Of a stretch of 64,000 nt of DNA, positions 18,201 to 63,286 are shown piece after piece. The translations under genes were made by a program, and so were the position numbers. The stretch lies in assembly GCF_964355755.1 (NCBI RefSeq), contig NC_092675.1:2661812-2725811 (forward strand). Reading direction: 5' to 3'. The notes beneath the pieces are model-generated. The model did not search any database. It was not told where the DNA came from and was given only the letters and a program-made list of their open reading frames with translations. This DNA is from Antedon mediterranea. Taxonomy: Eukaryota > Animalia > Echinodermata. The first letter of the stretch is position 1; every line of letters begins with the position of its first letter.

Positions 18201-19261
18201 TGAGAGATCTGCAAAAACACATATTCAATCATTTTAATTAAAAGTTACTATCAGACAATGTTCACACCCGATTTCCAGTGCTGTATCTCCACATACTATC
18301 TACTATATTTCCAAAGTATCATACAGTAGGTATATTTGGTAATACAGCATGTCATTTATATCACATGTGGTGCCTGTATCATGTAGTTTAAGGGTTAGGT
18401 TACTACTCGGTAGTATTATTAATAAATCAATTGACTGTGTTTTTTACCACTATATTTATCTTTAATATTGGTGAGTGCTTCGACCAAACGCCATTGTCCT
18501 TCCTGATTAACAACTCCTCCTTCCCCTGACAGTTGAATGCTCCATTCATTTATACATTTTAACTTGGAATTATATGTGCGGAATCCTAAGCATTCCTCCA
18601 GATGATTGTAATCACGACTCCATGAGAAACTAAAAATAAACCAAAAAATATACAAAAATAAAAATTGTTTATTATTGATACCATTACTGCCACTGGGTAA
18701 TTGTATGTCTATCTATGTAGGGATTTGGGTCATTATGGGTCATCATGGGTCATCATTGGGTCTGTAATTTAATAGGCCCTACCCATGATTTATTTGTTAT
18801 AACTCACTAATAAATGATGTAAGGCGCACCTAATAGGCCCTAACGTTCAGAAAAAATGTAATACAGACAATATTAATTAATAATTAATATTATTTAAGCC
18901 CTTTTTAAAGCAAATTAGGCGGGCATAAAAATCAAAACTTGGTTGACATTTTGCCATCTACTGGTTTTGGAACTGGAATTCTTGCCATGTACATAATCTA
19001 CTGCCTAGGCCCTAGGCCATTATGCCGGTACCGGCCTTAACACACACACGCCAGCTTATTTAGGTTATTATTATGTTAGGCCTGCCTAGCCTACCTGTCA
19101 ATTCCAGAAAGTTCATCACAATTTGCGATGTTTATGTTAAAAAAAACACGTCCATCAACAGACAGAAAGCCTATTATTTTTCTACCAGGAGCTTCAAATA
19201 TGTTTTTGACATTTTGAAGCTCAAAATTACGTTCAAGATTACTTAGCGAAACTTCAAACAT
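104..19261 (-). CDS. SPG11: Spatacsin (SPG11), 5' part, 19 coding exons, continues beyond window start
   Basis: Exons 19095-19261, 18448-18629, 17993-18208, 16779-17550, 16538-16658, 16232-16382, 15557-15907, 15193-15275, 14662-14913, 13733-13804, 12959-13095, 12509-12711, 12157-12388, 11726-11932, 11120-11226, 10665-10810, 9847-10008, 8554-8626, 104-269 join with consistent GT-AG phases (3800 nt). Peptides recalled as spatacsin-like: NWAHCSIPIHALEVGLKHRQLDTIAFFLK, GFNVKVELKQMCMQTTNRIVRDFL, SPFDVSKLFLWQS, LDFTYYLKQGRPSFAF. Confidence 0.93.
1593..1665 (+). mobile_element. tRNA-derived SINE head, degenerate
   Basis: A-box-like TGTAGTCGAGTGG and B-box GGTTCGAATCC; no clean cloverleaf. Confidence 0.5.
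1778..1925. repeat. about 63-66-bp tandem repeat, about 2.3 copies
   Basis: CAGGACACAGGCTGAGTGACCTCAT... recurs at about 1781, 1846 and 1915. Confidence 0.8.
5290..7758 (+). CDS. TRIM-NHL family E3 ligase (TRIM2/3/71-like): RING, B-box1, B-box2, coiled coil, two filamin repeats, NHL propeller; intronless CDS
   Basis: 822-aa ORF. RING CSSC...CFHSFCNEC...CPLSSC; B-boxes CQKC...CKDC...H and CSKH...FC...ICKSC...H..H; filamin motif NGSYEVKFDPKDPGIYVAHVMLDGLHVKNSP; NHL motifs LNRPSAIAIDSIGNIYVSD and GQFDTPVDV...IYVCDRYNNRVQ. Splice acceptor tttatttag ends at 5279, implying a non-coding upstream exon (candidate donor aag|gtaagt at 4048). Confidence 0.93.
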   Translation: MAMMDQKIEECQLIHCSSCQVEYDQTDDSPKYLACFHSFCNECIEKSATDKNTYKCPLSSCGKHQEVPPEGVNGLPENKLPQILTKINNLVNDMSKCQKCDGTHKADFWCKDCSMFYCKDCSEEHGTNEEHEVISCGNLAKKIENGERNVLNGSHYCSKHGEKIQSFCKKRSCKKAICKSCVEVHSPAHGHDVVDLKREADQCRKEFQCGIRDMKVCSKQWTSLEKNKSKEIEQIEMTTNEATEKIQKFFESGYILLKEREQAALKEVSKYAKEMKDYVEFQNQKASQLKESAKQLETVASNVIMYTDDKDIVQMKSRMVNVMNHLSVPPLSSRVIGPNMMSFNKADNAEERVLGFLNGIGQVKFNCAVPYLSYCEDTVAFEDFPCKINVQMVDYMGENCKQGGMNLTVVVKAPKTSTDVPHRVYDMMNGSYEVKFDPKDPGIYVAHVMLDGLHVKNSPLSIPTCELKTTVHPQVCNKPSKVTLTAVDSSRKARPMQPNLPIQAELDCPNGETITCDVVQESSKIYNIRYIPTELGEHKLYVGMNKKVLDFNPIILNVKQYLAVGQTNCSNQLNRPSAIAIDSIGNIYVSDTSKNKRIQKYNMAHECIGSIEMDLDGDASLVIDQDDNLIILFRSSKTVKVFDSTGNLQSTFTMDIMKKPIGLEVDSNNRIYITDCVGHKVYILDYYGKILNEFGGRGKEPGQFDTPVDVCLYNDLIYVCDRYNNRVQQLNEEGECLKIFNCCEKSFDMAAAITMTHEGHLVVYDAEQTMAAVLDVESKEVIKVVPCYGDVGQYQWESIIVNKDSMLLKVCPSQNCFRVYRM
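8554..8626 (-). CDS. SPG11: SPG11 exon (AYSPFDVSKLFLWQSTNNVAIREE)
   Basis: cacag / gtaag splice sites, phase 0 to 1. Confidence 0.9.
9847..10008 (-). CDS. SPG11: SPG11 exon (AMTGPVV...DVSVYDLLQ)
   Basis: cccag / gtgag; overlaps ORF 9814..10020. Confidence 0.9.
10665..10810 (-). CDS. SPG11: SPG11 exon (DPSYMFQTSL...APGTLEQ)
   Basis: tacag / gtaac; within ORF 10593..10898. Confidence 0.88.
11120..11226 (-). CDS. SPG11: SPG11 exon (LCQTVDD...CPWLHMMLHFRW)
   Basis: ttacag / gtatc; phase-compatible. Confidence 0.85.
11490..11662 (-). mobile_element. tRNA-head SINE (same family as 45284)
   Basis: Reverse complement matches 45284-45460 (GTGGCCGAGTGGTTAAG...GATAAGGACT..AAAC...GTGCAC.TTAAAGAACCC). 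Confidence 0.75.
11726..11932 (-). CDS. SPG11: SPG11 exon (RGVFSSNEIQDFDKLLKRLSRI...)
   Basis: cgtag / gtaag; ORF 11722..11925. Confidence 0.88.
12157..12388 (-). CDS. SPG11: SPG11 exon (...AWEFLTSRADWKQIQNWI...)
   Basis: cttag / gttag; ORF 12147..12356. Confidence 0.88.
12509..12711 (-). CDS. SPG11: SPG11 exon (...VQLWDKKTRERILFER...)
   Basis: ttcag / gttgg; ORF 12477..12695. Confidence 0.85.
12959..13095 (-). CDS. SPG11: SPG11 exon (ICELQKMGEFNAEEESAIEFIRHFEKLY...)
   Basis: tgcag / gtaag. Confidence 0.87.
13733..13804 (-). CDS. SPG11: SPG11 exon (GFNVKVELKQMCMQTTNRIVRDFL)
   Basis: catag / gtgag, 72 nt, phase 0. Confidence 0.9.
14011..14163. mobile_element. PIF/Harbinger-type MITE (about 140-150 bp)
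   Basis: TIRs AGCTCTGTCTACACTATCAAAC / GTTTGATAGTATAGACAGAGCT; further copies at about 47055, 52827, 56640 and 63130, and fragments at about 10592 and 11265. Confidence 0.8.
14662..14913 (-). CDS. SPG11: SPG11 exon (DVVESAILESCLPLAQAY...RILSNM)
   Basis: ttcacag / gttag; in ORF 14590..14952. Confidence 0.87.
15193..15275 (-). CDS. SPG11: SPG11 exon (DKEFKGYYWCKDQTECEELNNFKTMSKK)
   Basis: ttttag / gttag; provides the needed phase 1 to 0 change. Confidence 0.8.
15557..15907 (-). CDS. SPG11: SPG11 exon (...ENMSESQSKQYSDQLVHLTLTF...)
   Basis: ctttag / gtatag; ORF 15510..15923. Confidence 0.87.
16232..16382 (-). CDS. SPG11: SPG11 exon (VMTYESATLAERLCQSNNWAHCSIPIHALEVGLKHRQLDTIAFFLKCREG)
   Basis: Spatacsin motif; tttag / gttag. 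Confidence 0.93.
16538..16658 (-). CDS. SPG11: SPG11 exon (FSEPTFVS...GVDQEYLINK)
   Basis: ttcag / gtata; phase 2 to 0. Confidence 0.85.
16779..17550 (-). CDS. SPG11: SPG11 large exon
   Basis: ORF 16775..17569; tttcag / gtaag. Confidence 0.88.
17551..17992 (-). other. U12-type (minor spliceosome) GT-AG intron
   Basis: 5' splice site GTATCCTTT; branch-like TTTCTTGAA about 14 nt before the 3' AG; reading frame preserved across the junction. Confidence 0.75.
17873..17956. repeat. 21-bp tandem repeat (AGAACAGTTGACTGTGCTATT), about 3.5 copies
   Basis: Direct reading. Confidence 0.8.
17993..18208 (-). CDS. SPG11: SPG11 exon (DLSSNPSTC...LFILEESGII)
   Basis: tgcag acceptor, U12-type donor. Confidence 0.82.
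18448..18629 (-). CDS. SPG11: SPG11 exon (FSWSRDYNHLEECLG...)
   Basis: tttag / gtaaa; ORF 18419..18655. Confidence 0.78.
19095..19261 (-). CDS. SPG11: SPG11 first coding exon (MFEVSLSNLERNF...)
   Basis: ATG at 19261 preceded by candidate acceptor cttccttcag|acg; donor gtag at 19094. Confidence 0.72.
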
Positions 19262-19899
19262 CGTCTGAAGGAAGCAGACATATTGTTTATTCACGAGATT
19301 ATAAAATAGTATTTACAATTTTGATAATATCTAGTTTTAAAAAAATACTAAAAAATGACTAAAACTCTAAATAATAATACTATTTAATATTTTAAAATAT
19401 ATATTTGATACCAGTATTTTAACATAATAGAAAGGAAGTATTTATATAGTATTATAGTATGATGTCAGGCAAAGTTCACGTTATTTGTGTTTTGTAAACA
19501 TTGGAGAGGTATATTCAGAGCGTCATTTCGGAGCTATATTTCCTATACCATCCTGGCTAGTTGAGAATTCTCAACTATTTTATGTTTTTTTCTACCTTTC
19601 TGGAAAATGATATAATCCAAATTGTATTAATTCTACCAGTAGTAAACATTTAGAAACACTTGCATACATTCACTAATTTTAGTTGTTTGTAGTTTAAGAC
19701 AATCTTAGTGACATTTAAATGAAAACAATACGATAAAAACTATTGTGTCTGTATTTTACAAGACTATGACTTCCGTATAACGTGCATTGTGGGTACTTCA
19801 ATTTTTATAGAAAAGCTAGGGAATCCTAATTTAGTAGGCAGCATATGGGGGCGGGGCAACCAAACTTGCTTATCAAATCAAAGCACAGTAAAGCAAAGG

Positions 19900-22275
19900 A
19901 TAAAATTAATGTACGATCCAGTTTACCACTGTTCTCAACTATAGTCATTTTAGTATACTTGAGCACAGTGATAAAGAATAGGATAAACTTAACAATATAC
20001 AACAAATAACATTAATGCACGATCCCGTTTAACACTGTTCTCAACTATAGCCATTAATTTTGGTGTACTTGAGCACAGTGATAAAGAACAGGATAAACTT
20101 AACAATATACAACAACAATGTACGATCCCGTTTAACACTGTCCTCAACTATAGTCATTTTGGTATACTAGAGCACAGTGATAAAGAATAGGATAAACTTA
20201 ACAATATACAACAAATAACATTAATGTACGATCCAGTTTAACACTGTTCTCAACTATAGTCATTTTGGTATACTTGAGCACAGTGATAAAGAATAGGATA
20301 AACTTAATAATATACAACAAATAACATTAATGTACGATGTAGTTTAACACTGTTCTCAACTATAGTCATTTTGGTATACTTGAGCACAGTGATAAAGAAT
20401 GGGATAAACTTAATAATATACAACAAATAACATTAATGTACGATGTAGTTTAACACTGTTCTCGACTATAGTCATTTTGGTATACTTGAGCAAATTGATA
20501 AAGAATAGGATAAACTTAACAATATACAACAAATAACATCAATGTACGATCCCGTTTAACACTGTTCTCAACTATAGTCATTTTGGTATACTTGAGCACA
20601 GTGATAAAGAATAGGATAAACTTAATAATATACAACAAATAACATTAATGTATGATCCCGTTTAACACTGTTCTCAACTATAATCATTTTGTTATACTTG
20701 AGCACAGTGATAAAGAATAGGATAAACTTAATAATATACAACAAATAACATTAATGTATGATCCCGTTTAACACTGTTCTCAACTATAGTCATTTTGTTA
20801 TACTTGAGCACAGTGATAAAGAATAGGATAAACTTAATAATATACAACAAATAACATTAATGTACGATCCAGTTTAACACTGTTCTCAACTATAGTCATT
20901 TTGGTATACTTGAGAACAGTGATAAAGAATAGGATAAACTTAATAATATACAACAAATAACATTAATGTACGATCCAGTTTAACACTGTTCTCAACTATA
21001 GTCATTTTGGTATGATTTGATTTGATTTGATTTATTTCGGCATCAGTACATAAAATATCACAGACATACAATTAAATTAATCAAGTATAAAAATACCAAA
21101 ATAAAACAAGGATGCCAAGGATAACTCATAAAAGTCCTCTACGGACTTATTTCCAATGAGGTCCTTTGAAAGAACAGCAAAAAGACAAACAATGCAACAA
21201 ATAAAAATTACAAAAAACAGCATACTTGAGCACAGTGATAAAGAATAGGATAAACTTAACAATATACAACAAAAAACATTAATGTACGATCCCGTTTAAC
21301 ACTGTTCTCAACTATAGTCATTTTGGTATACTTGAGCACAGTGATAAAGAATAGGATAAACTTAATAATATACAACAAATAACATTAATGTACGATCCAG
21401 TTTACCACTGTTCTCAACTATAGTCATTTTGGTATACTTGAGCACAGTGATAAAGAATAGGATAAACTTAACAATATACAACAAATAGCATTAATGTACG
21501 ATCCAGTTTAACACTGTTCTCAACTATAGTCATTTTGGTATACTTGAGAACAGTGATAAAGAATAGGATAAACTTAACAATATACAACAAAAAACATTAA
21601 TGTACGATCCAGTTTAACACTGTTCTCAACTATAGTCATTTTGGTATACTTGAGAACAGTTATAAAGAATAGGATAAACTTAACAATATGCAACAAAAAA
21701 CATTAATGTACGATCCCGTTTAACACTGTTCTCAACTATAGTCATTTTGGTATACTTGAGCACAGTGATAAAGAATAGGATAAACTTAATAATATACAAC
21801 AAATAACATTAATGTACGATCCAGTTTACCACTGTTCTCAACTATAGTCATTTTGGTATACTTGAGCACAGTGATAAAGAATAGGATAAACTTAAAAATA
21901 TACAACAAAAAACATTAATGTACGATCCAGTTTAACACTGTTCTCAACTACAGTCATTTTGGTATACTAGAGCACAATGATAAAGAATAGGATAAACTTA
22001 ATAATATACAACAAATAACATTAATGTACGATCCAGTTTAACACTGTTCTCAACTATAGTCATTTTGGTATACTTGAGCACAGTGATAAAGAATAGGATA
22101 AACTTAACAATATACAACAAAAAACATTAATGTACGATCCCGTTTACCACTGTTCTCAACTATAGTCATTTTGGTATACTTGAGCACAATATACAACAAA
22201 TAACATTAATGTACACGATTCTGTTTAACACTGTTCTCAACTATAGTCATTTTCATATACTTGAGCACAGTGATA
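19900..22275 (+). repeat. 106-bp tandem array, left arm of element A (about 20 units)
   Basis: Unit CACTGTTCTCAACTATAGTCATTTTGGTATACTTGAGCACAGTGATAAAGAATAGGATAAACTTAACAATATACAACAAATAACATTAATGTACGATCCAGTTTAA. Confidence 0.95.
21014..21221 (-). mobile_element. 5'-truncated LINE (CR1/L2-type) 3' end inserted in the array
   Basis: Interrupts a unit at TTTGGTAT|ATACTTG; AATAAA-like signal followed by an (ATCAA)n tail on the minus strand; no TSD. Confidence 0.65.
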
Positions 22276-22279
22276 ATAT

Positions 22280-23420
22280 GAAAAACATAATAACACTATA
22301 ATATTTGTAGATGAATGACGCGGACACGTACATATTATGTTCATAAGTAATTGATATAAATTGACTTTTAAAAGTGGAATTAACACAAATGGTTGTAGAT
22401 AAATATGACGTGAAATGATTGTAGATAAACATGACGTGAATTGCACGTACATTATGTTGATGAGTAGTATATATAAATCGACTTTGAAAAGTGAAATAAC
22501 ACTAATATTTGTAGATGAATATGACGTGGACACGTACATATATTGATTAGTATATTGATATAAATCGACTTTTAAAAGTCAAATTAACACTAATATTTGT
22601 AGATGAATATGACTTGGACACGATTTACATATGTTGATGAGTATATTGATATAAATCGACTTTTAAAAGTGAAATAACACTAATATTTGTAGAAGAATAT
22701 GACGTACATATATACGGTACATAATGTTGAATATGACTTGGACACGATTTACATAATGTTGATGAGTATATTGATATAAATCGACTTTTAAAAGTCAAAT
22801 AACACTAATATTTGTAGATGAATATGACGTACATATATACGGTACATAATGTTGATGAGTATATTGATATAAATCGACTTTTAAAAGTGAAATAACACTA
22901 TTGATTGTAGACGTGAATTGCACGTACATAATGTTGATGAGTGTATTGTTATAAATCGACTAAACGTTAAATAACACTATCTTGTACAAGTACCCTCACT
23001 TGCACTGATGAAGGGCTAGTGTTGCCCGAAAACTCTGCTAACTTTTCTGGCTGTTTTAATTTATCGTTTTGATTTAGCTTTTCGCTTCTTTTTTTGTATC
23101 TCCATTGAGACCACAGCATTGTTATTATTTCAGTATTTTGCCTTTGGATTTACTAATATTAAAAGTGAAATAACACTAATAACTGTAGATGATATGACAT
23201 TTATGTTGATGTATATATTTTTGTATATATAATATGCACACGTACATACGTTGATAGGTATTGATATAAATAGATTTTTAAAAGTACGGTAATAGACACT
23301 TTATTTGTAGATGAATACGACATGGACAAGTTGCAATAAATTCTATCGTTATATCGTATGTTGATGAGTATTGATATAAATCGACTTTTTTTAAAGTGGA
23401 ATAACACTAAAATGTATAGA
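22280..23420 (+). repeat. Diverged about 89-bp satellite in the centre of element A
   Basis: AATAACACTAATATTTGTAGATGAATATGACGTGGACACGTACATAATGTTGATGAGTATATTGATATAAATCGACTTTTAAAAGTG recurring. Confidence 0.85.
23000..23040 (+). ncRNA. Degenerate Penelope-type minimal hammerhead ribozyme within an insert of about 180 bp (about 22980-23160)
   Basis: GCA-CTGATGA-A-GGGC(tagtgtt)GCCC-GAAA-AC-TC-TGC: core boxes, 4-bp stem II, 3-bp stem I. Confidence 0.55.
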
Positions 23421-23625
23421 TGGATATGGCCTCAACAAGTATTGTATTAAGCGGTACTGTATATTGATATACTTCATACCTGTAATGTCAATGAAATCTG
23501 GCAACAAGAATTGTGTTTGATCCTCCTAATAGTATTCTAATATTATCTTGGTTTGTAAAGGAGGCATGAAAAATCTAAACGCATAGCCAGGGGAGGGGTT
23601 GGAGTTTCCTACGGTTTTTGTGAAC

Positions 23626-23740
23626 TTTTTAGTAGCGTGCAAACGTGACTCTACAGCTCACTATGTCGGTCGGTCGGTCGGTAAACACCAACTCAAATTT
23701 GAGCACGCGACTGCAGCCATGTTTATACTATGGCCTGTTT
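23626..23740 (+). mobile_element. Helentron-type non-autonomous element (HINE/DINE-1-like)
   Basis: TTTTT-AGTAGCGTGC subterminal IR with local hairpin, (GTCG)n microsatellite, 3' GCACGCGACT, terminal GCCAT...ATGGC hairpin and TGTTT. Confidence 0.65.
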
Positions 23741-23849
23741 ATACTAGAAATCAGCAGTGAAAGTATATTTAAATAATATGTGTTAATATAGAATTAGTTT
23801 TTTTTATTTAATAAATAGTATTAAAGTTGATCTTATTCTTTATCTGTGA

Positions 23850-26350
23850 TTAATTATACTCAAATGACTGTAGTTTAAAACAGTATTAAACGGCATCGTA
23901 CATTAATGTTATTTTCTGTTAATTCGAAAATATACCAAAATGACTATAATTTAGAACAGGGTTAAACTGGATCGTACATTAATGTTATTTGTTGTATATT
24001 GTTAAGTTTATCCTATTCTTTATCACTGTAGTTTAAGTATACCAAAATGACTATAGTTGAGAACAGTGTTAAACGGGATCGTACATTAATGCTATTTGTT
24101 GTATATTATTAAGTTTATCCTATTCTTTATCACTGTGCTCAAGTATACCAAAATGACTATAGTTGAGAACAGTGTTAAACGGGATCGTACATTAATTCTA
24201 TTTGTTGTATATTATTAAGTTTATCCTATTCTTTATCACTGTAGCTTAAGTATACCAAAATGACTATAGTTGAGAACAGTGTTAAACGGGATCGTACATT
24301 AATGTTATTTGTTGTATATTGTTAAGTTTATCCTATTCTTTATCACTGTGCTCTAGTATACCAAAATGACTATAGTTGAGAACAGTGTTAAACGGGATCG
24401 TACATTAATGCTATTTGTTGTATATTATTAAGTTTATCCTATTCTTTATCACTGTGCTCAAGTATACCAAAATGACTATAGTTGAGAACAGTGTTAAACG
24501 GGATCGTACATTAATGCTATTTGTTGTATATTATTAAGTTTATCCTATTCTTTATCACTGTAGCTTAAGTATACCAAAATGACTATAGTTGAGAACAGTG
24601 TTAAACGGGATCGTACATTAATGCTATTTGTTGTATATTATTAAGTTTATCCTATTCTTTATCACTGTGCTCAAGTATACCAAAATGAATATAGTTGAGA
24701 ACAGTGTTAAACGGGATCGTACATTAATGCTATTTGTTGTATATTATTAAGTTTATCCTATTCTTTATCACTGTGCTCAAGTATACCAAAATGACTATAG
24801 TTGAGAACAGTGTTAAACGGGATCGTACATTAATGCTATTTGTTGTATATTATTAAGTTTATCCTATTCTTTATCACTGTAGCTTAAGTATACCAAAATG
24901 ACTATAGTTGAGAACAGTGTTAAACGGGATCGTACATTAATGTTATTTGTTGTATATTATTAAGTTTATCCTATTCTTTATCACTGTAGCTTAAGTATAC
25001 CAAAATGACTATAGTTGAGAACAGTGTTAAACGGCATCGTACATTAATGTTATTTGTTGTATATTGTTAAGTTTATCCTATTCTTTATCACTGTGCTCAA
25101 GTATACCAAAATGACTATAGTTGAGAACAGTGTTAAACGGGATCATACATTAATGTTATTTGTTGTATATTGTTAAGTTTATCCTATTCTTTATCACTGT
25201 TCTCAAGTATACCAAAATGACTATAGTTGAGAACAGTGTTAAACTGGATCGTACATTAATGTTATTTGTTGTATATTATTAAGTTTATCCTATTTTTTAT
25301 CACTGTGCTCAAGTATACCAAAATGACTATAGTTGAGAACAGTGTTAAACGGGATCGTACATTAATGTTATTTGTTGTATATTATTAAGTTTATCCTATT
25401 CTTTATCACTGTAGCTTAAGTATACCAAAATGACTATAGTTGAGAACAGTGTTAAACGGGATCGTACATTAATGTTATTTGTTGTATATTGTTAAGTTTA
25501 TCCTATTCTTTATCACTGTGCTCAAGTATACCAAAATGACTATAGTTGAGAACAGTGTTAAACGGGATCGTACATTAATGTTATTTGTTGTATATTGTTA
25601 AGTTTATCCTATTCTTTATCACTGTGCTCAAGTATACCAAAATGACTATAGTTGAGAACAGTGTTAAACGGGATCGTACATTAATGTTATTTGTTGTATA
25701 TTGTTAAGTTTATCCTATTCTTTATCACTGTGCTCAAGTATACCAAAATGACTATAGTTGAGAACAGTGTTAAACGGGATCATACATTAATGTTGTATAT
25801 TGTTAAGTTTATCCTATTCTTTATCACTGTTCTCAAGTATACCAAAATGACTATAGTTGAGAACAGTGTTAAACTGGATCGTACATTAATGTTTTTTGTT
25901 GTATATTGTTAAGTTTATCCTATTCTTTATCACTGTGCTCAAGTATACCAAAATGACTATAGTTGAGAACAGTGTTAAACTGGATCGTACATTAATGTTA
26001 TTTGTTGTATATTATTAAGTTTATCCTATTCTTTATCACTGTGCTCTAGTATACCAAAATGACTATAGTTGAGGACAGTGTTAAACGGGATCGTACATTG
26101 TTGTTGTATATTGTTAAGTTTATCCTGTTCTTTATCACTGTGCTCAAGTACACCAAAATTAATGGCTATAGTTGAGAACAGTGTTAAACGGGATCGTGCA
26201 TTAATGTTATTTGTTGTATATTGTTAAGTTTATCCTATTCTTTATCACTGTTCTCAAGTATACCAAAATCACTATAGTTGAGAACAGTGTTACACTACAT
26301 CGTACATTAATGTTATTTGTTGTATATTGTTAAGTGTATTCTTTATTCTT
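23850..26350 (-). repeat. 106-bp tandem array, right (inverted) arm of element A (about 23 units)
   Basis: Reverse complement of the 19900-22275 unit. Confidence 0.95.
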
Positions 26351-27689
26351 ATTAATTGTACTAAATTATTAAAAGAAACAGTAGTAAGCATAACATTTCC
26401 CCACTCCTACATTAGCATGGTAGGACATTGTAATGGTCGCAGGTGGCTCAACTTTATTACTGCAATGGGATGGACATGGTCCTACTACCACCTTACCATC
26501 CAATAGGATTCCAGTAAATTTCCTTTACTACCAATCATAATTCAGTAATTAAATGACCCCTTAAGTTAACAAGGAAATCAGCCTATCCCATTATACCGGT
26601 AGGCTTCGTCGTACAGGCGTACTGCGGTAATAGTTGAGAATTCTCAACTAGCCAATTTGGTATATTTTATATACCTGCATTTCGACGATCGAGCATTCTC
26701 TACTTCTACGGAACGCCATTTATGCCTTTATTTACTTCCGGAATAGAAATAGTACTACGGTATTCAGTGGACCAAATTTAGCACCAGTGGAGCACAGTGA
26801 TATGAAATAGAAATAAGTCACTAATTTTAATATCTTTTCGTATGTTAATACACTGGACCCAATTTGGAGCCAGTGGAGCACAGTGATATATAAATAGAAA
26901 CAAGTCATTGAATGTTAATATCTTTTCGTATGCTAATACACTGTGCTCAAGTGGACACAATTTGGAGCCAGTGGAGCACAGCGATATAATAGAAATAAGT
27001 CACTAATTTTAATATCGTTTCGTATGTTATTACATTGTGCTCATGTTAGGTCTGGGGACCTTGTAGCTATTTTAAACAGTTTGGTAAGCCCTGCGTTGTT
27101 ATGCAAATGAGTTTGTGCAGGTGTAATAGGGAAGATGGTATAGTTAGTCCTACGCGGTGAACACGCCATAAAATTAAATTTAAAAGTTAAATTTTGATTT
27201 TGTTAATCTTTATTAGAAATTCAAATCATGTAAAGATTCAATTTTCCGGGCGGGAATCTAGAAACTCCCCTCCTTAAGTTTACAAAAGTAATCTTGAAAA
27301 GAACCCCATGTGGAAAAAAAAAGCTTATCCGTTGAAAAGAAGCCACCGTACTAAAGAGTACTAAAAATGAGGAACATTCGGGGTGTTATGGTGTCTATTT
27401 AATGGAAAAATGAATGCCATACACTTTTGTTTATGATTTAGGGTCCACTTGCCTAGGCCTGACATTTTCAACCCTCCGAATATCTCTCTTTAAAAAAAAC
27501 CAATAGGCCTATTCATTAAAAAAAAAATATCCGTAGAGGTTCGAACCCCAGCTGTCACTCAAAACTGAGCATTACCCGCACCACAAACTGAAACATGACT
27601 GAACAGCTGATAATTGTCTATTTATAAGTGTATTACGTAATTCATCATTACATCATAAATATCCTATTAATCTTGATAAAACCAAAATG

Positions 27690-27935
27690 ATCAGTTAGCT
27701 CAGTCGCCTGAGCGTCGTGTTGACAACACGTATGTCGTGGATTCGATTCCCACGCTGGTCGGTAGAATAGAGTTAAAGGTATGCGACCACTGTGTTTGGG
27801 GTCCATAGAATTGTACGTCCCCCTTTCCACCACACATCTTGAGAAGGCACTAGCAATGCATCTGGTAATGATGTGGTAGAAACGAACCCAAGGCTGCTGC
27901 AGGACCCTTAGTGCTGAGGCAAAGAGAGCACAATT
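27690..27935 (+). mobile_element. tRNA-derived SINE-like sequence in the centre of element C
   Basis: TTAGCTCAGTCG A-box-like and GATTCGATTCCC B-box-like; a second tRNA-like head on the minus strand at about 27528-27585. Confidence 0.5.
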
Positions 27936-28769
27936 TTTACTCTTTTTTTTTGGCTTTTGCTACATGTATTTGATCTCGTAAATTTTATGTTTAGCGGCCT
28001 CAATTTTAATGTAAAAATTGTTATCACTGAGCTTGACTGGCGCCAAATTGGGTCCATTTGAGCACATTTTATTAACAATAAACATACGAAAAGATATTAA
28101 AAAGCAGTGACTTATTTCTATTTTATATCACTGTGCTTCACTGGTGCCAAATTTGGTCCACTTGAGCACAGTGTATTAACATATGAAAATATATTCAAAT
28201 TAGTGACTTATTTTTATTCTATATCACTGTACTCCACCGGTGGCCAATTTGATCCACTGGACCGGTTACCGAAGTACTATTTCTATTTCTGAAGTAAATA
28301 AAGGCATAAATGGCGCTCCGTAGAAAAGTAGAGAATGCTCCATTGTCAGAGAATGACCTCTAAATATACGAGCTATATATCCAATACCAAATTGGCGAGT
28401 AAATCATGTTTTACTTTAAATTAAATTTATACGCTCTTCCACAAGGTCAATTGTTAGTTATACATACAGACTATATTAAAACAATGATTTTGAACACGTA
28501 GGGCATTTCTTTGAATTCTTTCCTATTGTCGTTTTGTGGTAATTTACAGCTTTTTATATGTTTAACAAACGTACATAATCAATTGCGTCTGCATCATGCT
28601 AGACTACAACTTCCGGTAGTGACGTAATCAGCATATTTTTGGTAATAAAACTTTTTCACTAAGCTAGGGAATCTTCTGATATCAATATTCATTAGACCGT
28701 ACTTTAGTTAGCCAATCAAAATAAACGTATAAACAATTTTGCGGTGATGTTACATGTTGTTGAGGTAAA

Positions 28770-31700
28770 ATATACTGTGTTTTACAATAACCAATTTGGT
28801 TAGAGTAAAACACGATGAAAAAGAATAGGAAACATTTAATAATATGATAAATGACATTTACATAGCAATTTATCACTGTGTTTTACTATAACCAATTTGG
28901 TTAGAGTAAAACACAATAATAAAGAATAGGAAACGTTTAATAATATGATAAATGTCATTACATAGCAATTTATCACTGTGTTTTACTATAGCCAATTTGG
29001 TTAGAGTAAAACACAATGATATAGAATAGGAAACATTTAATAATATGATAAATGACATTTACATAGCAATTTAGCACTGTGTTTTACTATAAACAATTTG
29101 GTTAAAGTAAAGCAGAATGATAAAGAATAGGAATTTAATAATATGATATATGACATTCACATAGCAATTTAGCACTGTGTTTTACTATAACCAATTTGGT
29201 TAGAGTAAAACACAATGATAAAGAATAGGAAACATTTAATAATATGATATATGACATTTACATAGCAATTTAGCACTGTGTTTTACTATAACCAATTTGG
29301 TTAAAGTAAAACACAATGAAAAGAATAGGAAACATTTAATAATATGATAAATGACATTTACATAGCAATTTAGCACTGTGTTTTACTATAACCAATTTGG
29401 TTAAAGTAAAGCAGAATGATAAAGAATAGGAATTTAATAATATGATATATGACATTTACATAGCAATTTAGCACTGTGTTTTACTATAACCAATTTGGTT
29501 AGAGTAAAACACAATGATAAAGAATAGAAAACATTTAATAATAATGATTATTTACATAGCAATTTAGCACTGTGTTTTACTATAACCAATTTGGTTAGTA
29601 AAACACAATGATATAGAATAGGAAACATTTAATAATATGATAAATGACATTTACATAGCAATTTATCACTGTGTTTTACTATAACCAATTTGGTTATGGT
29701 AAAGCACAATGATATAGAATAGGAAACATTTAATAATATGATAAATGACATTTACATAGCAATTTAGCACTGTGTTTTACTATAACCAATTTGGTTAAAG
29801 TAAAACATAATGATAAAGAATAGGAAACATTTAATAATTTAATAAATGACATTTACATAGCAATTTAGCACTGTGTTTTACTAAAACCAATTTGGTTATG
29901 GTAAAGCACAATGATATAGAATAGGAAACATTTAATAATATGATAAATGACTTACATAGCAATTTAGCACTGTGTTTTACTATAAACAATTTGGTTAAAG
30001 TAAAACACAATGATAAAGAATATGAAACATTTAATAATTTGATAAATGACATTCACATAGCACATTAGCATTGTGTTTTACTATAACCAATTTGGTTATG
30101 GTAAAGCACAATGATAAAGAATAGGAAACATTTAATAACATGATAAATGACATTTACATAGCAATTTAGCACTGTGTTTTACTATAACCAATTTCGTTAT
30201 GGTAAAGCACAATGATATAGAATAGGAAACATTTAATAATATGATAAATGACATTTACATAGCAATTTATCACTGTGTTTTACTATAACCAATTTGGTTA
30301 AAGTAAAACACAATGATAAAGAATAGGAAACATTTAATAATATGATAAATGACATTTACATAGCAATTTAGCACTGTGTTTTACTATAACCAATTTGGTT
30401 AAAGTAAAGCAGAATGATAAAGAATAGGAATTTAATAATATGATATATGACATTTACATAGCAATTTAGCACTGTGTTTTACTATAACCAATTTGGTTAG
30501 AGTAAAACACAATGATAAAGAATAGGAAACATTTAATAATTTGATAAATGACATTCACATAGCAATTTAGCACTGTGTTTTACTATAACCAATTTGGTTA
30601 GAGTAAAACACAATGATAAAGAATAGGAAACATTTAATAATATGATATATGACATTTACATAGCAATTTAGCACTGTGTTTTACTATAACCAATTTGGTT
30701 AAAGTAAAACACAATGAAAAGAATAGGAAACATTTAATAATATGATAAATGACATTTACATAGCAATTTAGCACTGTGTTTTACTATAACCAATTTGGTT
30801 AAAGTAAAGCAGAATGATAAAGAATAGGAATTTAATAATATGATATATGACATTTACATAGCAATTTAGCACTGTGTTTTACTATAACCAATTTGGTTAG
30901 AGTAAAACACAATGATAAAGAATAGAAAACATTTAATAATAATGATTATTTACATAGCAATTTAGCACTGTGTTTTACTATAACCAATTTGGTTAGTAAA
31001 ACACAATGATATAGAATAGGAAACATTTAATAATATGATAAATGACATTTACATAGCAATTTATCACTGTGTTTTACTATAACCAATTTGGTTATGGTAA
31101 AGCACAATGATATAGAATAGGAAACATTTAATAATATGATAAATGACATTTACATAGCAATTTAGCACTGTGTTTTACTATAACCAATTTGGTTAAAGTA
31201 AAACATAATGATAAAGAATAGGAAACATTTAATAATTTAATAAATGACATTTACATAGCAATTTAGCACTGTGTTTTACTATAACCAATTTGGTTATGGT
31301 AAAGCACAATGATATAGAATAGGAAACATTTAATAATATGATAAATGACTTACATAGCAATTTAGCACTGTGTTTTACTATAAACAATTTGGTTAAAGTA
31401 AAACACAATGATAAAGAATATGAAACATTTAATAATTTGATAAATGACATTCACATAGCACATTAGCATTGTGTTTTACTATAACCAATTTGGTTATGGT
31501 AAAGCACAATGATAAAGAATAGGAAACATTTAATAACATGATAAATGACATTTACATAGCAATTTAGCACTGTGTTTTACTATAACCAATTTCGTTATGG
31601 TAAAGCACAATGATATAGAATAGGAAACATTTAATAATATGATAAATGACATTTACATAGCAATTTATCACTGTGTTTTACTATAACCAATTTGGTTAAA

Positions 31701-33400
31701 GTAAAACACAATGATAAAGAATAGGAAACATTTAATAATATGATAAATGACATTTACATAGCAATTTAGCACTGTGTTTTACTATAACCAATTTGGTTAA
31801 AGTAAAGCAGAATGATAAAGAATAGGAATTTAATAATATGATATATGACATTTACATAGCAATTTAGCACTGTGTTTTACTATAACCAATTTGGTTAGAG
31901 TAAAACACAATGATAAAGAATAGGAAACATTTAATAATTTGATAAATGACATTCACATAGCAATTTAGCACTGTGTTTTACTATAACCAATTTGGTTATG
32001 GTAAAGCACAATGATATAGAATAGGAAACATTTAATAATATGATAAATGACATTTACATAGCAATTAGCACTGTGTTTTACTATAACCAATTTGGTTATG
32101 GTAAAGCACAATGATATAGAATAGGAAACATTTAATAATATGATAAATGACATTTACATAGCAATTTAGCACTGTGTTTTACTATAACCAATTCGGTTAT
32201 GGTAAAGCACAATGATATAGAATAGGAAACATTTAATAATAATGATTATTTACATAGCAATTTATTACTGTGTTTTACTATAACCAATTTGATTATGGTA
32301 AAACACAATGATAAAGAATAGGAAACATTTAATAATAATGATTATTTACATAGCAATTTAGCACCATGTTTTACTATAACCAATTTGGTTAGAGTAAAAC
32401 ACAATGACAAAGAATAGGAAACATTTAATAATATGATAAATGACATTTACATAGCAATTTAGCACTGTGATTTACTATAAACAATTTGGTTAAAGTAAAG
32501 CAGAATGATAAAGAATAGGAATTTAATAATATGATATATGACATTTACATAGCAATTTAGCACTGTGTTTTACTATAACCAATTTGGTTAGAGTAAAACA
32601 CAATGATAAAGAATAGGAAACATTTAATAATATGATATATGACATTTACATAGCAATTTAGCACTGTGTTTTACTATAACCAATTCGGTTATGGTAAAGC
32701 ACAATGATATAGAATACTAAACATTTAATAATAATGATTATTTACATAGCAATTTATCACTGTGTTTTACTATAACCAATTTGATTATGGTAAAACACAA
32801 TGATAAAGAATAGGAAACATTTAATAATAATGATTATTTACATAGCAATTTAGCACCATGTTTTACTATAACCAATTTGGTTAGAGTAAAACACAATGAT
32901 AAAGAATAGGAAACATTTAATAATAATGATTATTTACATAGCAATTTAGCACAATGTTTTACTATAATCAATTTGATTAGAGTAAAACACAATGATATAG
33001 AATAGGAACATTTAATAACATGATAAATGACATTCACATAGAAATTTAGCACTGTGTTTTACTATAACCAATTTGATTAGAGTAAAGCACAATGATAAAG
33101 AATAGGAAACATTTAATAATATGATAAATGACATTTACATAGTAATTTATCACTGTGTTTTACTATAACCAATTTGGTTAGAGTAAAACATTTTAACTAT
33201 GATAAATGATATTTAGCACTGTGCTGGATACAGTAAAACACAAATAAAGAATAGGAAACATATAATAATATGATACATTTACATACAAATTTAGTATTGT
33301 GTTTTACTATAGCCAATTTGGTTACAGTAAAACACAATGATAATGAAACATTTATTATATGATGTTATTTACATAGCAAAATATTATATTAAGTATATCT
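28770..33400 (+). repeat. 101-bp tandem array, left arm of element B (about 45 units, with a 1398-bp higher-order duplication)
   Basis: Unit CACTGTGTTTTACTATAACCAATTTGGTTAGAGTAAAACACAATGATAAAGAATAGGAAACATTTAATAATATGATAAATGACATTTACATAGCAATTTAG. Confidence 0.95.
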
Positions 33401-33430
33401 TATTATCTAAACGTTACGATAAAGAATAGG

Positions 33431-34690
33431 ATAATGTAATAATATAATAAATACAAGTTACATAGTTTATCATCTTGTTTTACAGAACCAATTTGGTGAC
33501 ACAGTTAAACACAGTGATAAAGAATAGATACTGTACTGTTTTAGGTTATATAACCCTAACCCTAGTTTGAAGCGACATAATAAATTCATCGCGAAAAAGT
33601 ACGTATCGTATTCAGAAACTTTTGAAATTTGTTAGATATGTTTAATAGGTTCTTACGTCTATAAAACAAACAAAAAATATAAATTTCACGAAAAATTCGT
33701 GATTTTAATAATTTGCATTTCTCAAAATGTACACTTATGAAATACCATACATTTTCCAACACATTTTTACTTCATTGATGATTCCCAGAAATCAAAATAA
33801 AACAAATTATGATATTTCTTTTACATTATAGATGTAAGAACCTATATTGAACATGTACCAAATGTCAAACGTTTTTTAAGACGATACGTATTTTTATCGA
33901 TGAATTAAGTATGTGATCGCTTCAAACTAGGGTTAGGGTTAAATAACCTAACAGTTCCATTCTTTAACACCGTGTTTAACTTTTAACCAAATTGGTTTTA
34001 GTACAACACAATGATAAACTATGTACATTTTATTTTTCATATTACATTATAGGATACATATAATTTAATAATAATAAATACAAGTTACATAGTTTATCAT
34101 CTTGTTTTACAGAACCAATTTGGTTACACAGTTAAACACAGTGATAAAGAATAGACACTGTTTTAGGTTATATAACTCTAACCCTAGTTTGAAGCGATCA
34201 CATACTTAATTCATCGCGAAAAAATACGTATCGTATTCAGAAACATTTGAAATTTGGTAAATATGTTCAATAGGTTCTTACGTCTATAAAACAAACAAAA
34301 AATAAAAGTTTCAAGACAAATTCGTGATTTTAATAATTTGCATTTCTAAACATTTACACTTATGAAAGACAATACATTTCCAACACATTTTTACTTCATT
34401 GATGATTCCCAGAAATCAAAATAAAACTATTAGGATATTTCTTTTGCATTATAGATGTAAGAACCTATATTGAACATATCTACCAAATATCAAACGTTTT
34501 TCAAAACGATACGTATTCTTAGCGATGAATATTAAATATGTGATCGCTTCAAACTAGGGTTAGGGTTAAATAAACTAAAACAGTTTTATTCTTTATCACT
34601 CACAGTGTTTAACTTTTAACCAAAATGGTTATAGTAAAACACAATGATAAACGTATATGTAAATTTTATTTTTCATAACATAAAATGTTT
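33431..34690. repeat. Two tandem hairpin modules of about 620 bp with TAACCC/TTAGGG repeats in their arms
   Basis: TAACCCTAACCCTAGTTTGAAGCGA (33551) pairs with TCGCTTCAAACTAGGGTTAGGGTTA (ending 33941); second copy at about 34173 / 34508; partial inverted third copy at about 34910-35115. Confidence 0.85.
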
Positions 34691-35195
34691 GATATTCTTT
34701 ATAATATTTAATATTATATTTTAGGCCTACTATTAATGACGTATAAATGCACACTACATCTGAAATAACTTTCTACTTCATTGGCGATTCTTACCAAAAA
34801 AAAGAACTAATTTTGTTATGTATATAGAGCAACCTATTATAACATGTCTTGTATGATTTTTATCTCGTTTCAATGACATTTTATACTACAATTCAAATGA
34901 AAAAGCATCACAAAAAAATACGTCTGGTATTCAAAAAGTTTCTAAACTCGGTACACAGAAAAAACGAATATGTTGAAAATGTATGGTCTTTCATAAGTGT
35001 GAATTTTTAGAAATGCAAATAATGGAAGTCATCAATTTGTCTTGAAATTTATAATTTGTTTTGTCTTATTGAACATATCTATACAACATTTCAAACGTTT
35101 CTGAATACGATACGCGAAAAGTGTTGTGTAAACGAACGTTTTTTACGCTTCAAATTTTCTGTTACATTATGTTTGAATTGAAGCTACAGATATTG

Positions 35196-35236
35196 AATCA
35201 TGGACCTATAAATTAGTAATTTATAGGTCCATGATT
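35196..35236. repeat. Perfect 20-bp-arm palindrome (1-nt loop)
   Basis: AATCATGGACCTATAAATTA-G-TAATTTATAGGTCCATGATT. Confidence 0.95.
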
Positions 35237-35485
35237 GAACATATCGTCACTCACCACACATTTTTTGTTTTGTATTTCGAAAGTATTTATTCTAAAGAAC
35301 AATTGATGCAAACATCAACTGCGCATCTTATTTCATTAATTAATTATATTAATTACAATTTGGCGATTATTCGTCACACGAAGCGTCGAATATCGATTCG
35401 TCTCGTCATGGGAAGAAAACGTGCATTGCGCACACTGTTTACGCGCCTCAACAATAAACGGCGAATATGCGATTCGTCACTAATT

Positions 35486-36369
35486 ATGGAACGCCGTTTT
35501 ACACAAGTTTTTGGCGATGATAAAAATTGCGTCGATGATGAAATTGCGTCGATGAAAATTGCATCGACGCAATGTAGATTGCGTCGACGCAATTTACATT
35601 GCGTCGATGAAAATTGCATCGATGAAATTTGCGTCGATGAAAATTGCGTCGATGAAAACTGCATCGATGAAAATTGCGTCGATGAAAACTGCATCGATGA
35701 AAATTGATTTGATGAATTTAATTGATTATGAAAATTCCAAATGGTTTTAATTCAATCAATGATGAAATGACTACTAGTAAAGTAAATGATGATGTTAATA
35801 ATGATGTTAATAATGTTATTATGTTGCTAAAAATTGACGGTTTCTGAATATTTTGATATGATAAACATGTTTACCGCTTGCGCTAGCGCGCGTTATAGAC
35901 AAGCGCACAGTGAGCGCGCACTAAAACAATGTTGAAATATATGCACTGATTAACATTTTAGTGATTTATTGTCAACACATTTTAGCAATGGATCCATTAT
36001 TGTCCTTTCGGACACATTATATCTTCTAGCTAATTGCTTCCGTTAATCCACCAGTTCAGTACATAAAATTCAGATGTCCAGCATCCATGACATCATATTC
36101 AAATCATACCGGCAGGGAGATCGCAATTTTCATCGATGCAGTTTTCATCGATGCAGTTTTTATCGACGCAATTTTCATCGACGCAATTTTCATCACATTA
36201 ACGCAATTTTCATTACATCGACGCAATTTTCATCGACGCAATGTTCATCACATCGACTTAAATTTTCATTACATCAATACTATATTCATCGACGCAATTT
36301 TCATCACATCGACGCAATTTTCATTGCATCATCGACGCGATTTTATCATCGCCTAAACTGGCATTCCAT
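35486..36369. mobile_element. Foldback element D (884 bp) with inverted 15-bp tandem arrays, probable 7-bp TSD ACTAATT
   Basis: Ends ATGGAACGCC / GGCATTCCAT; arrays of GAAAATTGCGTCGAT at 35513-35705, inverted at 36120-36353; ACTAATT at 35479-35485 and 36370-36376. Confidence 0.78.
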
Positions 36370-36699
36370 ACTAATTGCGTGTGATCTGATTGGTGTATTA
36401 TAAATAAATTCATCGCGATGAATTTTTCAGTAGATGTAATGAGACAGTTCAGTAGATGTAATGACAGTTAATTTAATTGTTCTGCTCTTTTTGTACAAAT
36501 CTATAATACTTTATATTATGGATTTTGTAGTACTGTTAAAATTATTAAATCTCTGGAAGTGTGTTTTACGAGTATGTCCGCAAATTTATGCGTTTACGGT
36601 TTTAAAATGTGAGTTTTAAATAGCGAACATGATCTTGTTAGGTGCACTCTTACTAATTGGGAGAAAATCATATTGTACCATATCATATTATATCCATTC

Positions 36700-37860
36700 T
36701 TTAAATTCATATTCTTTATCCAAAACTAAATTGGTATAGTAAAACACAGTGCTAGCAATTTATCATATTATTAAATGTTTCATATTCTTTATCATTGTGT
36801 TTTACTCTAATAAAATTGGTATAGTAAAACACAGTGCTAAATTGCTATGTGAATGTCATTTATCATATTTTTAAATGTTTCCTATTCTTTATCATTGTGT
36901 TTAACTCTAACCAAATTGGTTATAGTAAAACACAGTGCTAAATTGCTATGTAAATGTAATTTATCATATTATTAAATGTTTCCTATTCTTTATCATTGTG
37001 TTTTACTCTAACCAAATTGGTTATAGTAAAACACAGTGATAAATTGCTATGTAAATGTAATTTATCATATTATTAAATGTTTCCTATTCTTTATCATTGT
37101 GTTTTACTCTAACCAAATTGGTTATAGTAAAACACAGTGATAAATTGCTATGTAAATGTAATTTATCATGTTATTAAATGTTTCCTATTCTTTATCGTTG
37201 AGTTTTACTCTAATCAAATTGGTTATAGTAAAACACAGTGCTAAATTGCTATGTAAATGTCATTTATCATATTATTAAATGTTTCCTATCCTTTATCATT
37301 GTGTTTTACTCTAACCAAATTGGTTATAGTAAAACATTGTGCTAAATTGCTATGTAAATGTTATATATCATATTATTAAATGTTTCCTATTCTTTATGAT
37401 TGTGTTTTACTCTAATCTGATTGGTTATAGTAAAACACAGTGCTAAATTGCTATGTGAATGTCATTTATCATGTTATTAAATGTTTCCTATTCTTTATCA
37501 TTGTGCTTTACTCTAACCAAATTAGTTATAGTAAAACACAGTGCTAAATTGCTATGTAAATGTCATTTATCATGTTATTAAATGTTTCTTATTCTTTATC
37601 ATTGTGTTTTACTCTAACCAAATTGGTTATAGTAAAACACAGTGCTAAATTGCTATGTAAATGTAATTTATCATATTATTAAATGTTTCCTATTCTTTAT
37701 CATTGTGTTTTACTCTAACCAAATTGGTTATAATTTATTTAATTTCATTTCAAAAGACATTTACCTAAATTTATATTTAAATGTCATTTATCAAATTATT
37801 AAATGTTTCCTAATATTTATCTGGTTATATAGTAAAACACTGTGCTAAATTGCTATTGTA
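36700..37860 (-). repeat. 101-bp tandem array, right (inverted) arm of element B (about 11 units)
   Basis: Reverse complement of the 28770-33400 unit. Confidence 0.93.
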
Positions 37861-37892
37861 TTAAGGACGAGTTCCGAGAAGATGTATTCAAA

Positions 37893-37950
37893 GCTACAAC
37901 CAATCAGAACAGTGTTAATCAATATAGTCCATGGCTACAACCAATCAGAA
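37893..37950 (+). promoter_or_regulatory. Tandem CCAAT (NF-Y-like) boxes inside element B, upstream of endophilin
   Basis: GCTACAACCAATCAGAA twice (CCAAT at 37900 and 37941). Confidence 0.5.
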
Positions 37951-38238
37951 ACGTCCAAATCGCAATAACCCCTAGGCTAATAGAAATTATTGGTCCGAGT
38001 AGCCTTTTCAACCAGACGTTGCGAGGTTTAAAAAGTAAAACATGATTTACTCGCCAGTTTGGTATAGTTTATATACCTGAATATACCTCGCAGAATAGAA
38101 GCAAGAAGGAGGTACCGTTTCATTAAAACACAACACAGTACGAATCGGATTTTTACGTTATTTTTTCAGGTCGAAATAAAGTTTGTTTATGCTGTAACAT
38201 TAACGTCATCGTTGTAGAAGAAACAAACAATAACCATC

Positions 38239-38283
38239 ATGTCTTTCTCTGGATTAAAAAAACAAATAAACAAGGCGAATCAG
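38239..38283 (+). CDS. SH3GL: Endophilin A coding exon 1 ([15 protein letters not shown], helix H0)
   Basis: ATG...CAG|gtaag, 45 nt. Confidence 0.92.
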
Positions 38284-63130: not shown

Positions 63131-63286
63131 AGCTTTGTCTCCACTATCAAACTAGTTTGACAACAAAAGTGTGATGTGCCCAAATATGATAGGGATATAC
63201 CCAAATATGGTAGTGATATGACATCATCATTTCCATATATGGGCACATCATATTTTTTGTCACAAAGTTTGATAGTGTAGACAGCT
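63131..63286. mobile_element. PIF/Harbinger-type MITE copy
   Basis: AGCTTTGTCTCCACTATCAAAC...GTTTGATAGTGTAGACAGCT. Confidence 0.75.

What the first reader, a model, noticed from the sequence alone, without database searches (positions are those of the whole stretch)
19506..38089. 18.6-kb nest of related foldback transposons inserted into each other's termini, between two head-to-head genes
Seen: element A (19531-26677, TSD CATTTCG) lies 25 bp inside the left end of element C, and element B (28370-38079, TSD AATATAC) lies within 10 bp of its right end. Removing A and B restores C's matching TIRs (GAGGTATATT...). Removing C leaves only about 390 bp between the SPG11 ATG (19261, minus) and the endophilin ATG (38239, plus). 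All three elements share end motifs and unit architecture but have distinct sequences, and none encodes a transposase. Known: foldback structure with a 7-bp TSD is the signature of Galileo (P superfamily), and Mutator-like Phantom elements also have foldback TIRs. Inference: a transposon family that targets promoters or TSSs and/or the ends of its own relatives. Two independent hits within 25 bp of the two termini are unlikely by chance.
Basis: partly seen in the sequence, partly recalled or inferred. Interest (0 to 1): 0.88.

Follow-up and report, generated by a model that had tools for sequence, protein, structure and literature searches.

The report
Foldback transposons stacked in shared promoter
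Two jumping-DNA elements sit inside the tips of an older relative between two head-to-head genes, stretching a gap of about 0.4 kb to 19 kb; one is missing from another allele, and the stacking likely reflects a preference for landing next to gene starts.

Summary
The nest is real. A (19531-26677) and B (28370-38079) each carry an exact 7-bp target duplication and sit at positions 19-25 and 4-10 of the two ends of a 1.7-kb element, C. Public contigs show a B-less allele with one copy of the duplication, and a C-type end without B at the same site in a related species: C is old, B is polymorphic. A and B are one non-autonomous family with asymmetric ends and inverted ~100-bp arrays. C shares only the terminal ~10 bp and two unit motifs, and has no target duplication. 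No transposase is present. B lies 16 bp from the 5'-most base of a spliced endophilin contig. Five other insertion flanks are GC-rich, and none resembles C's end. Promoter targeting, as known for P and Mutator, therefore explains the end insertions better than end-homing, which is not excluded. It works like Galileo (7-bp duplication, foldback arrays), but Galileo's target consensus is not met and the superfamily is unassigned. Verdict: a new variant of a known kind, of moderate interest.

The parts
19096..19261 (-). SPG11 (spatacsin) first coding exon, ATG at 19261
   Evidence: Open frame from the ATG; spliced contig joint 18629->19095 in run X5; downstream exons match PDB spatacsin
19262..19505 (.). 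Left remnant of the original 393-bp head-to-head interval
   Evidence: Single-copy depth in run X2; contig 19351-19537 bridges it into C; length
19506..19530 (+). Left terminus of element C (25 bp), including the first copy of A's duplication at 19524-19530
   Evidence: aligns with C's right terminus
19531..26677 (+). Element A, 7,147 bp, non-autonomous foldback-type DNA transposon
   Evidence: Exact 7-bp duplication, family-type ends; inverted arrays
19531..19899 (+). A left end: ~48-bp imperfect TIR plus left arm homologous to B's left arm
   Evidence: A-left vs B-left z 6.5, 0 of 300 shuffles; multi-copy depth in X2, X5, X8
19900..22270 (+). A left array, ~22 x 106 bp
   Evidence: units 95% alike
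23931..26340 (-). A right array, ~23 x 106 bp, inverted to the left array
   Evidence: 96% identity to left units
26678..26684 (+). Second copy of A's 7-bp duplication
26685..28362 (+). Body of element C: left TIR to ~27046, middle ~975 bp, right TIR from ~28022; each TIR has about three ~90-bp units
   Evidence: units carry the two 10-bp motifs shared with A and B
28363..28369 (+). First copy of B's 7-bp duplication
   Evidence: present once in the B-less allele
28370..38079 (+). Element B, 9,710 bp, same family as A, polymorphic
   Evidence: right arm identical to three high-depth X2 contigs
28774..33190 (+). B left array, ~44 x 101 bp, each unit a hairpin
   Evidence: one unit folds at z -8.3; units homologous to A's, z 30.6
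36757..37856 (-). B right array, ~10 x 101 bp, inverted
38080..38089 (+). Second copy of B's duplication (38080-38086) and last 3 bp of C
   Evidence: C-type terminus at the same site in organism B, runs X6 and X8
38090..38238 (+). Right remnant of the original interval, largely endophilin 5' leader
   Evidence: Spliced X5 contig covers 38102-38283 and continues into exon 2 at 43078
38239..38283 (+). Endophilin A first coding exon
   Evidence: splice to exon 2 in X5

Best explanation
Two non-coding foldback-type DNA transposons of one family (A and B) sit, each with a 7-bp target duplication, in the two tips of an older relative (C) that had split the SPG11/endophilin head-to-head interval, most likely because the family inserts right next to transcription starts and C's tips are the DNA just upstream of each gene. 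Shown: the nesting, the duplications, kinship of A and B, a B-less allele, and a C-type end without B in a related species. Inferred: cut-and-paste mobilisation in trans by an unseen transposase that makes a 7-nt staggered cut. Inferred: the arrays are multimerised transposase sites, since the 10-bp motif at TIR positions 17-26 recurs in the units of all three elements. Inferred: order C, then A, then B. Inferred: selection removes hits in the host promoter halves, which leaves those just inside C. A P-superfamily (Galileo-like) transposase is the best single guess, about 0.45, against about 0.2 each for hAT and MULE.
For: B-less allele: an X2 contig (1,018 bp, depth 274, single-copy level) runs from the endophilin flank through one AATATAC into 51 further letters, the 30 shown being identical to window 28333-28362. 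C older: a 1,813-bp contig in both organism-B runs (X6, X8) carries a C-type terminus at the same site, 22 of 23 letters matching C's left end, without B. TSS proximity: B's site is 16 bp from the 5'-most base of a spliced endophilin contig and 153 bp from its ATG; A's site is 263 bp from the SPG11 ATG. Other insertions: five single-contig flanks have 22, 17, 15, 16 and 12 G+C of 30; the sum 82 was reached in 0 of 200,000 draws from the window outside the nest (mean 47.3) and 0 of 200,000 from a 40% GC coding exon. 0 of 5 resemble C's end (by eye). Four X5 contigs lead from the element's right end into 200 or more letters of other sequence in a run that shows splicing. Shared motif: at most 1 mismatch, 17 per kb in B's left array and 3-9 per kb in C's TIRs against 0.05 per kb outside; at most 2 mismatches, 8-9 per kb on one strand in A's arrays against 1.0-1.3. 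Precedent: P and Mu insertions peak within 50 bp of TSSs (PMC7337890, section 9 read); Galileo THAP and Muta1 transposases bind or need the internal repeats (PMC3688188, PMC5499845, passages seen).
Against: Only five flanks, three from an RNA-type run that selects transcribed DNA; the two from DNA-like runs alone give p = 0.017. None of those flanks was placed relative to a gene. Visible flanks are biased to unique DNA, so nested copies are under-counted, and 234 and 11 loose-end rows were hidden. One organism-B join places a C-like end behind an A-like arm (table 5c), which fits mutual nesting. Contigs cannot show a transcription start, and the SPG11 start was not located. No listed X2 contig bridges the B/flank junction, and the C/A junction is crossed by only 7 letters. 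The superfamily is not shown: no transposase, left end GAGC rather than CA, Galileo target consensus at chance level. C has no duplication.
Confidence: 0.6

Rival explanations
1. End-homing: transposase bound to the shared motifs in C's subterminal units tethers incoming A/B elements, so relatives' termini are hot spots wherever they lie.
For: Both hits lie within 25 bp of the termini (uniform p about 4e-4). C's units carry both family motifs. An organism-B contig joins an A-like arm to a C-like end (table 5c). [quoted passage not shown] A hot spot inside the P-element TIR is recalled; the paper could not be retrieved.
Against: 0 of 5 single-contig flanks and 0 of 2 two-contig consensus flanks resemble C's end. 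Both sites are also the points of C nearest a gene start, so this locus cannot separate the models.
Confidence: 0.2
2. Safe haven plus local sequence preference: no special targeting; insertions survive in C because they spare the host promoter halves, and they fall at the tips because these are GC- and CpG-richer than the rest.
For: C's terminal 60 bp are 47% and 43% GC against 32% background. The other flanks are GC-rich. The last base of the 7-mer is G or C in 7 of 7 sites (hand count; five are one-sided inferences).
Against: C's middle is also relatively GC-rich (38% over 27001-28000) and was not hit by A or B. A modest sequence bias hardly gives a 30-fold concentration at both tips.
Confidence: 0.14
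3. Part of the nest, mainly B or the array lengths, is an assembly artefact.
For: The X2 contig at the right flank follows the B-less path, and no listed contig bridges B to the flank. Array lengths were not testable with short-read contigs.
Against: An assembler would not create exact 7-bp duplications at family-typical ends on both sides. The B-less contig also differs from the window at 38205, a letter shared with X5 and X8, as expected for another haplotype. The flank/C junction is bridged at single-copy depth with 0 differences.
Confidence: 0.05

Closest known systems
Galileo (P superfamily, Drosophila)
   Same: 7-bp duplication; long, internally repeated inverted arms; a terminal-region motif repeated in the internal units (PMC3688188); mostly non-autonomous copies; other elements often at the termini (PMC4168063). 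Passages seen.
   Different: No GTANTAC target preference (10 of 42 positions). Left and right ends differ from the first base. The short TIR is separated from the arrays by non-matching arms. Arrays of 10-44 units. No THAP/P transposase seen.
Mutator/Foldback elements: Tm1 (Phantom-like, Meloidogyne) and Muta1 (Aedes)
   Same: Composite arms with variable numbers of tandem units. Tm1 has asymmetric terminal motifs, and one Tm1 copy with the same motif at both ends lacks a duplication, like C (PMC3169594, passages seen).
   Different: Duplications of 8-10 bp (Tm1), 8-9 bp (Muta1), 8-11 bp for MULEs generally (PMC6446971); units of 12-15 bp, not ~100 bp.
TSS precision-targeting of P and maize Mu elements
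   Same: Insertion next to a Pol II start; here 16 bp from the 5'-most base of a spliced contig (PMC7337890, section 9 read).
   Different: Shown there on de novo insertions; here one locus plus five unplaced flanks.
hAT families with 7-bp duplications (hAT7 of rust fungi; Repbase '7-bp TSD' hAT entries)
   Same: Duplication length (PMC12730594, PMC4455052, passages seen).
   Different: hAT7 is described from fungi; no kilobase inverted arrays are mentioned in the passages seen; no transposase here to compare.

Membership tests
Galileo (P superfamily) | 7-bp target duplication | tested here: met
   A and B exact; single copy in the B-less allele. Not met for C.
Galileo (P superfamily) | Long, internally repeated inverted arms | tested here: met
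   Inverted arrays, left-right unit identity 96% (A) and 93% (B); interrupted by non-matching arms.
Galileo (P superfamily) | Palindromic target consensus GTANTAC/GTATTAC (PMC4168063) | tested here: not met
   10 of 42 positions over 7 sites, chance level; 5 of the 7 sites inferred from one side.
Galileo (P superfamily) | Symmetric termini beginning CA (recalled as the P-superfamily rule; from no call) | tested here: not met
   Right ends read CAGG from outside; left ends GAGC in both A and B.
Galileo (P superfamily) | THAP plus P-type DDE transposase in an autonomous partner | not testable with these tools
   0 of 66 frames hit a transposase; no genome held.
MULE (Phantom/Tm1/Muta1 foldback type) | 8-11-bp target duplication (PMC6446971) | tested here: not met
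   7 bp exactly in A and B.
MULE (Phantom/Tm1/Muta1 foldback type) | Long arms with subterminal tandem repeats; asymmetric terminal motifs in Tm1 | tested here: met
MULE (Phantom/Tm1/Muta1 foldback type) | MULE DDE transposase | not testable with these tools
   None in the nest; no genome.
hAT with 7-bp duplication | 7-bp duplication | tested here: met
hAT with 7-bp duplication | hAT transposase | not testable with these tools
TSS precision-targeting elements (P, Mu) | Genome-wide enrichment of insertions at Pol II starts | tested here: inconclusive
   One TSS-adjacent locus; 5 of 5 GC-rich flanks, unplaced and biased.

The most novel reading that the evidence does not exclude
An active animal DNA-transposon family with asymmetric ends, 7-bp duplications and kilobase arrays of its own binding motif, fitting no described superfamily's end rules, homes to its relatives' termini at promoters. 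It builds Russian-doll stacks that pull bidirectional promoters apart by tens of kilobases, segregate within the species, and bring their own CCAAT boxes next to the displaced gene.
Probability: 0.15. Interest if true: 0.75.

Novelty: new variant of a known kind. Interest (0 to 1): 0.45.

Why it matters
Precision TSS targeting is established for Drosophila P and maize Mu. A recently active natural family doing this in another animal lineage would be a third system and would make the recruitment mechanism comparable across lineages. The locus is also a natural allelic series (C only, C+A, C+A+B) for asking what a 1.7- to 18.6-kb separation does to a head-to-head gene pair. Endophilin and SPG11 both give spliced contigs in another sample of the species, whose genotype at the nest is unknown. 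As it stands, nested foldback elements near promoters are known kinds of event, so the interest is moderate.

Tried and rejected
No whole genome is held, so copies, TSS distances and an autonomous partner could not be tabulated. Metagenome scan with the right-end motif: 25 loci, 0 of 25 with more than the motif itself (best hit 23 bp), no family left end; judged chance matches in microbial DNA. Rfam on 19000-39000: one match above its gathering score (tRNA); the 55 others, miRNA-type hairpin hits, are far below theirs. A hammerhead-like string at ~23005-23040 got no Rfam hit and folds at z -1.3; dropped. A 9- or 10-bp reading of the duplications was rejected because both elements end in the same CTG regardless of target. 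A duplication for C was sought over 100 boundary pairs: none. Right arms of A and B are not detectably homologous (z 1.0), and the A unit tested does not fold better than shuffles (z -1.0). No RNA holder was listed as such. GingerRoot (6-bp duplication, gene-poor targets) and tandem-TIR plant MULEs (no inner duplication) were read in passages and do not fit. Earlier-findings look-ups returned nothing. Paper searches: off-topic; 0 hits; none listed an element with these ends, but end sequences were not searchable, Repbase and Dfam are not held, and no supplements were read, so absence from print is not shown. The Phantom paper and the P local-transposition paper were not held. Rows left out of the flank count: two consensus-of-two rows (13 and 17 G+C of 30) and rows at 38052-38069 that leave inside the TIR. 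The host lineage was not determined.
Full report
Setting. The window is AT-rich (32% GC outside the nest) animal DNA; the lineage was not determined and no whole genome is held. SPG11 runs leftward from ATG 19261 (spatacsin matches) and endophilin A rightward from ATG 38239. Both give spliced contigs in run X5.

Anatomy. A (19531-26677) and B (28370-38079) are flanked by exact 7-bp duplications. Both begin GAGCTATAT and end ATATACCTG, so left and right termini differ at positions 1 and 4 in both elements. Each has a ~48-bp imperfect TIR, a left arm and a right arm of ~300-400 bp that do not match each other (z 0.4 and 0.9), and then inverted arrays: 106-bp units in A (~22 and ~23), 101-bp units in B (~44 and ~10). 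A and B units are homologous (z 30.6; 72% identity), as are their left arms (z 6.5, 0 of 300 shuffles); their right arms are not (z 1.0). Rebuilt C is 1,713 bp with TIRs aligning at 301 of 354 columns, symmetric GAGGTATATT ends and no duplication. C's unit resembles A's (z 3.7 and 5.7) and, weakly, B's (z 2.8 and 1.3); its first 130 bp match neither. The 10-bp motif at positions 17-26 of the A/B TIR, and a second 10-bp motif, recur in the units of all three elements far above the flanks. No frame encodes a transposase (0 of 66).

Evidence from other sequence. Nine runs were listed; five of them were laid, on two array-free stretches. In X2 (organism A, sample S1) a single-copy-depth contig passes from the endophilin flank through one AATATAC straight into C's inner right TIR; the 30 letters shown equal window 28333-28362. 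This is the B-less allele. It confirms the rebuilt C and the 7-bp duplication, and makes B polymorphic, unless B is misassembled: no listed contig bridges B to the flank. The same run has a contig from the left flank through C's left end and 7 letters into A with no difference. In organism B (X6 and X8) the orthologous flank is preceded by 23 letters of C-type terminus without B, so C predates the split. The organism-B left junction is unresolved: one contig appears to leave the window near 19506, and another joins an A-like arm to a C-like end. Contig depth on B's right arm is 47-54 times single-copy in X2 and 12-15 times in X6 and X8; on A's left arm about 42 times in X2. The tool warns that depth is no copy number, so these only indicate tens of copies. 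Three deep X2 contigs match B's right arm without a difference, whereas A's left arm differs from most of the depth at three or more sites, which suggests B is the younger (inference).

Why the tips? Uniform insertion into C would put two hits within 25 bp of opposite ends with p about 4e-4. The tips are also the points of C nearest each gene: B's site is 16 bp from the 5'-most base of a spliced endophilin contig (contigs cannot show a true start), and A's is 263 bp from the SPG11 ATG. Five other insertion flanks, each from one contig, are 40-73% GC; their sum was reached in 0 of 200,000 background draws, or p = 0.017 for the two from DNA-like runs alone. None resembles C's end. This favours promoter or GC-rich open-DNA targeting over obligate end targeting. 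The sample is small, three flanks come from an RNA-type run, none is mapped to a gene, and flanks inside repeats are under-seen. P and Mu insertions peak within 50 bp of TSSs (PMC7337890, section 9 read), which makes the model ordinary in kind.

Mechanism. Shown: nesting, duplications, kinship, polymorphism of B, greater age of C. Inferred: C split the 393-bp interval first; A and then B were mobilised in trans by a cut-and-paste transposase leaving 7-bp duplications; they landed just upstream of each start, where only hits inside C are likely tolerated; the arrays multiply binding sites, as shown for Galileo and Muta1 (PMC3688188, PMC5499845, passages seen). C's lack of a duplication may be decay or a recombination product with one end type on both sides, as proposed for one Tm1 copy (PMC3169594, passages seen).

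Comparison. It works like Galileo: 7-bp duplication, foldback arrays, crowding at termini (PMC4168063, PMC2775673, passages seen). It is not filed as Galileo: the target consensus is met at 10 of 42 positions and the left end is not CA (the CA rule is recalled). MULE membership fails on duplication length (PMC6446971, passages seen), although the asymmetric ends recall Tm1. 7-bp hAT families exist. By Repbase's rule for non-autonomous elements (same duplication length and terminal 11 bp with one mismatch; PMC4455052) A and B belong together; C cannot be placed. My split for the partner transposase is P-like 0.45, hAT 0.2, MULE 0.2, other 0.15. Repbase and Dfam could not be searched and no supplements were read, so the family may already be catalogued.

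Verdict. New variant of a known kind, interest 0.45.

Noticed in passing
window 35509-36357: A fourth, unrelated foldback-like element inside B with inverted 15/20-bp tandem arrays; no exact duplication of 5-11 bp found. Its repeats cause the pentapeptide Pfam hits.
   Followed up: partly
window 33431-34050 and 34046-34705: Two tandem ~630-bp palindromic mini-foldbacks in B's middle: a B-type unit on each side of a core with TTAGGG-like ends; a partial third core at 34967-35114. May show how the inverted arms grow.
   Followed up: partly
window 27688-27762: tRNA-Val(GAC)-like sequence inside C (Rfam 44.9 bits), probably a SINE head or pseudogene; a second B-box-like piece near 27535.
   Followed up: partly
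window 22290-23430: A second, unrelated ~90-bp tandem array in A's middle, on one side only.
   Followed up: no
window 37900-37948 and 19847-19857: Two CCAATCAG boxes in B's right arm, 150-200 bp upstream of the endophilin leader, and a GC box in A's left arm (motif names recalled). They could supply promoter activity; untested.
   Followed up: no
window 35190-35242: A 53-bp near-perfect palindrome inside B.
   Followed up: no
window 14008-14167, 47074-47188, 52823-52970, 56634-56765, 63128-63284: Five copies of an unrelated ~160-bp palindromic MITE.
   Followed up: partly
window 5290-7758 (+): Intronless 822-aa TRIM-NHL gene (RING, B-box, filamin, NHL) on the strand opposite SPG11, possibly inside an SPG11 intron.
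   Followed up: partly
window 18306-18407: A very high-copy short repeat in an SPG11 intron, in organisms A, B and C.
   Followed up: no
target 7-mers of A/B-type insertions: The base next to the element's left end is G or C in 7 of 7 sites (five inferred from one side): a possible one-sided target bias.
   Followed up: partly
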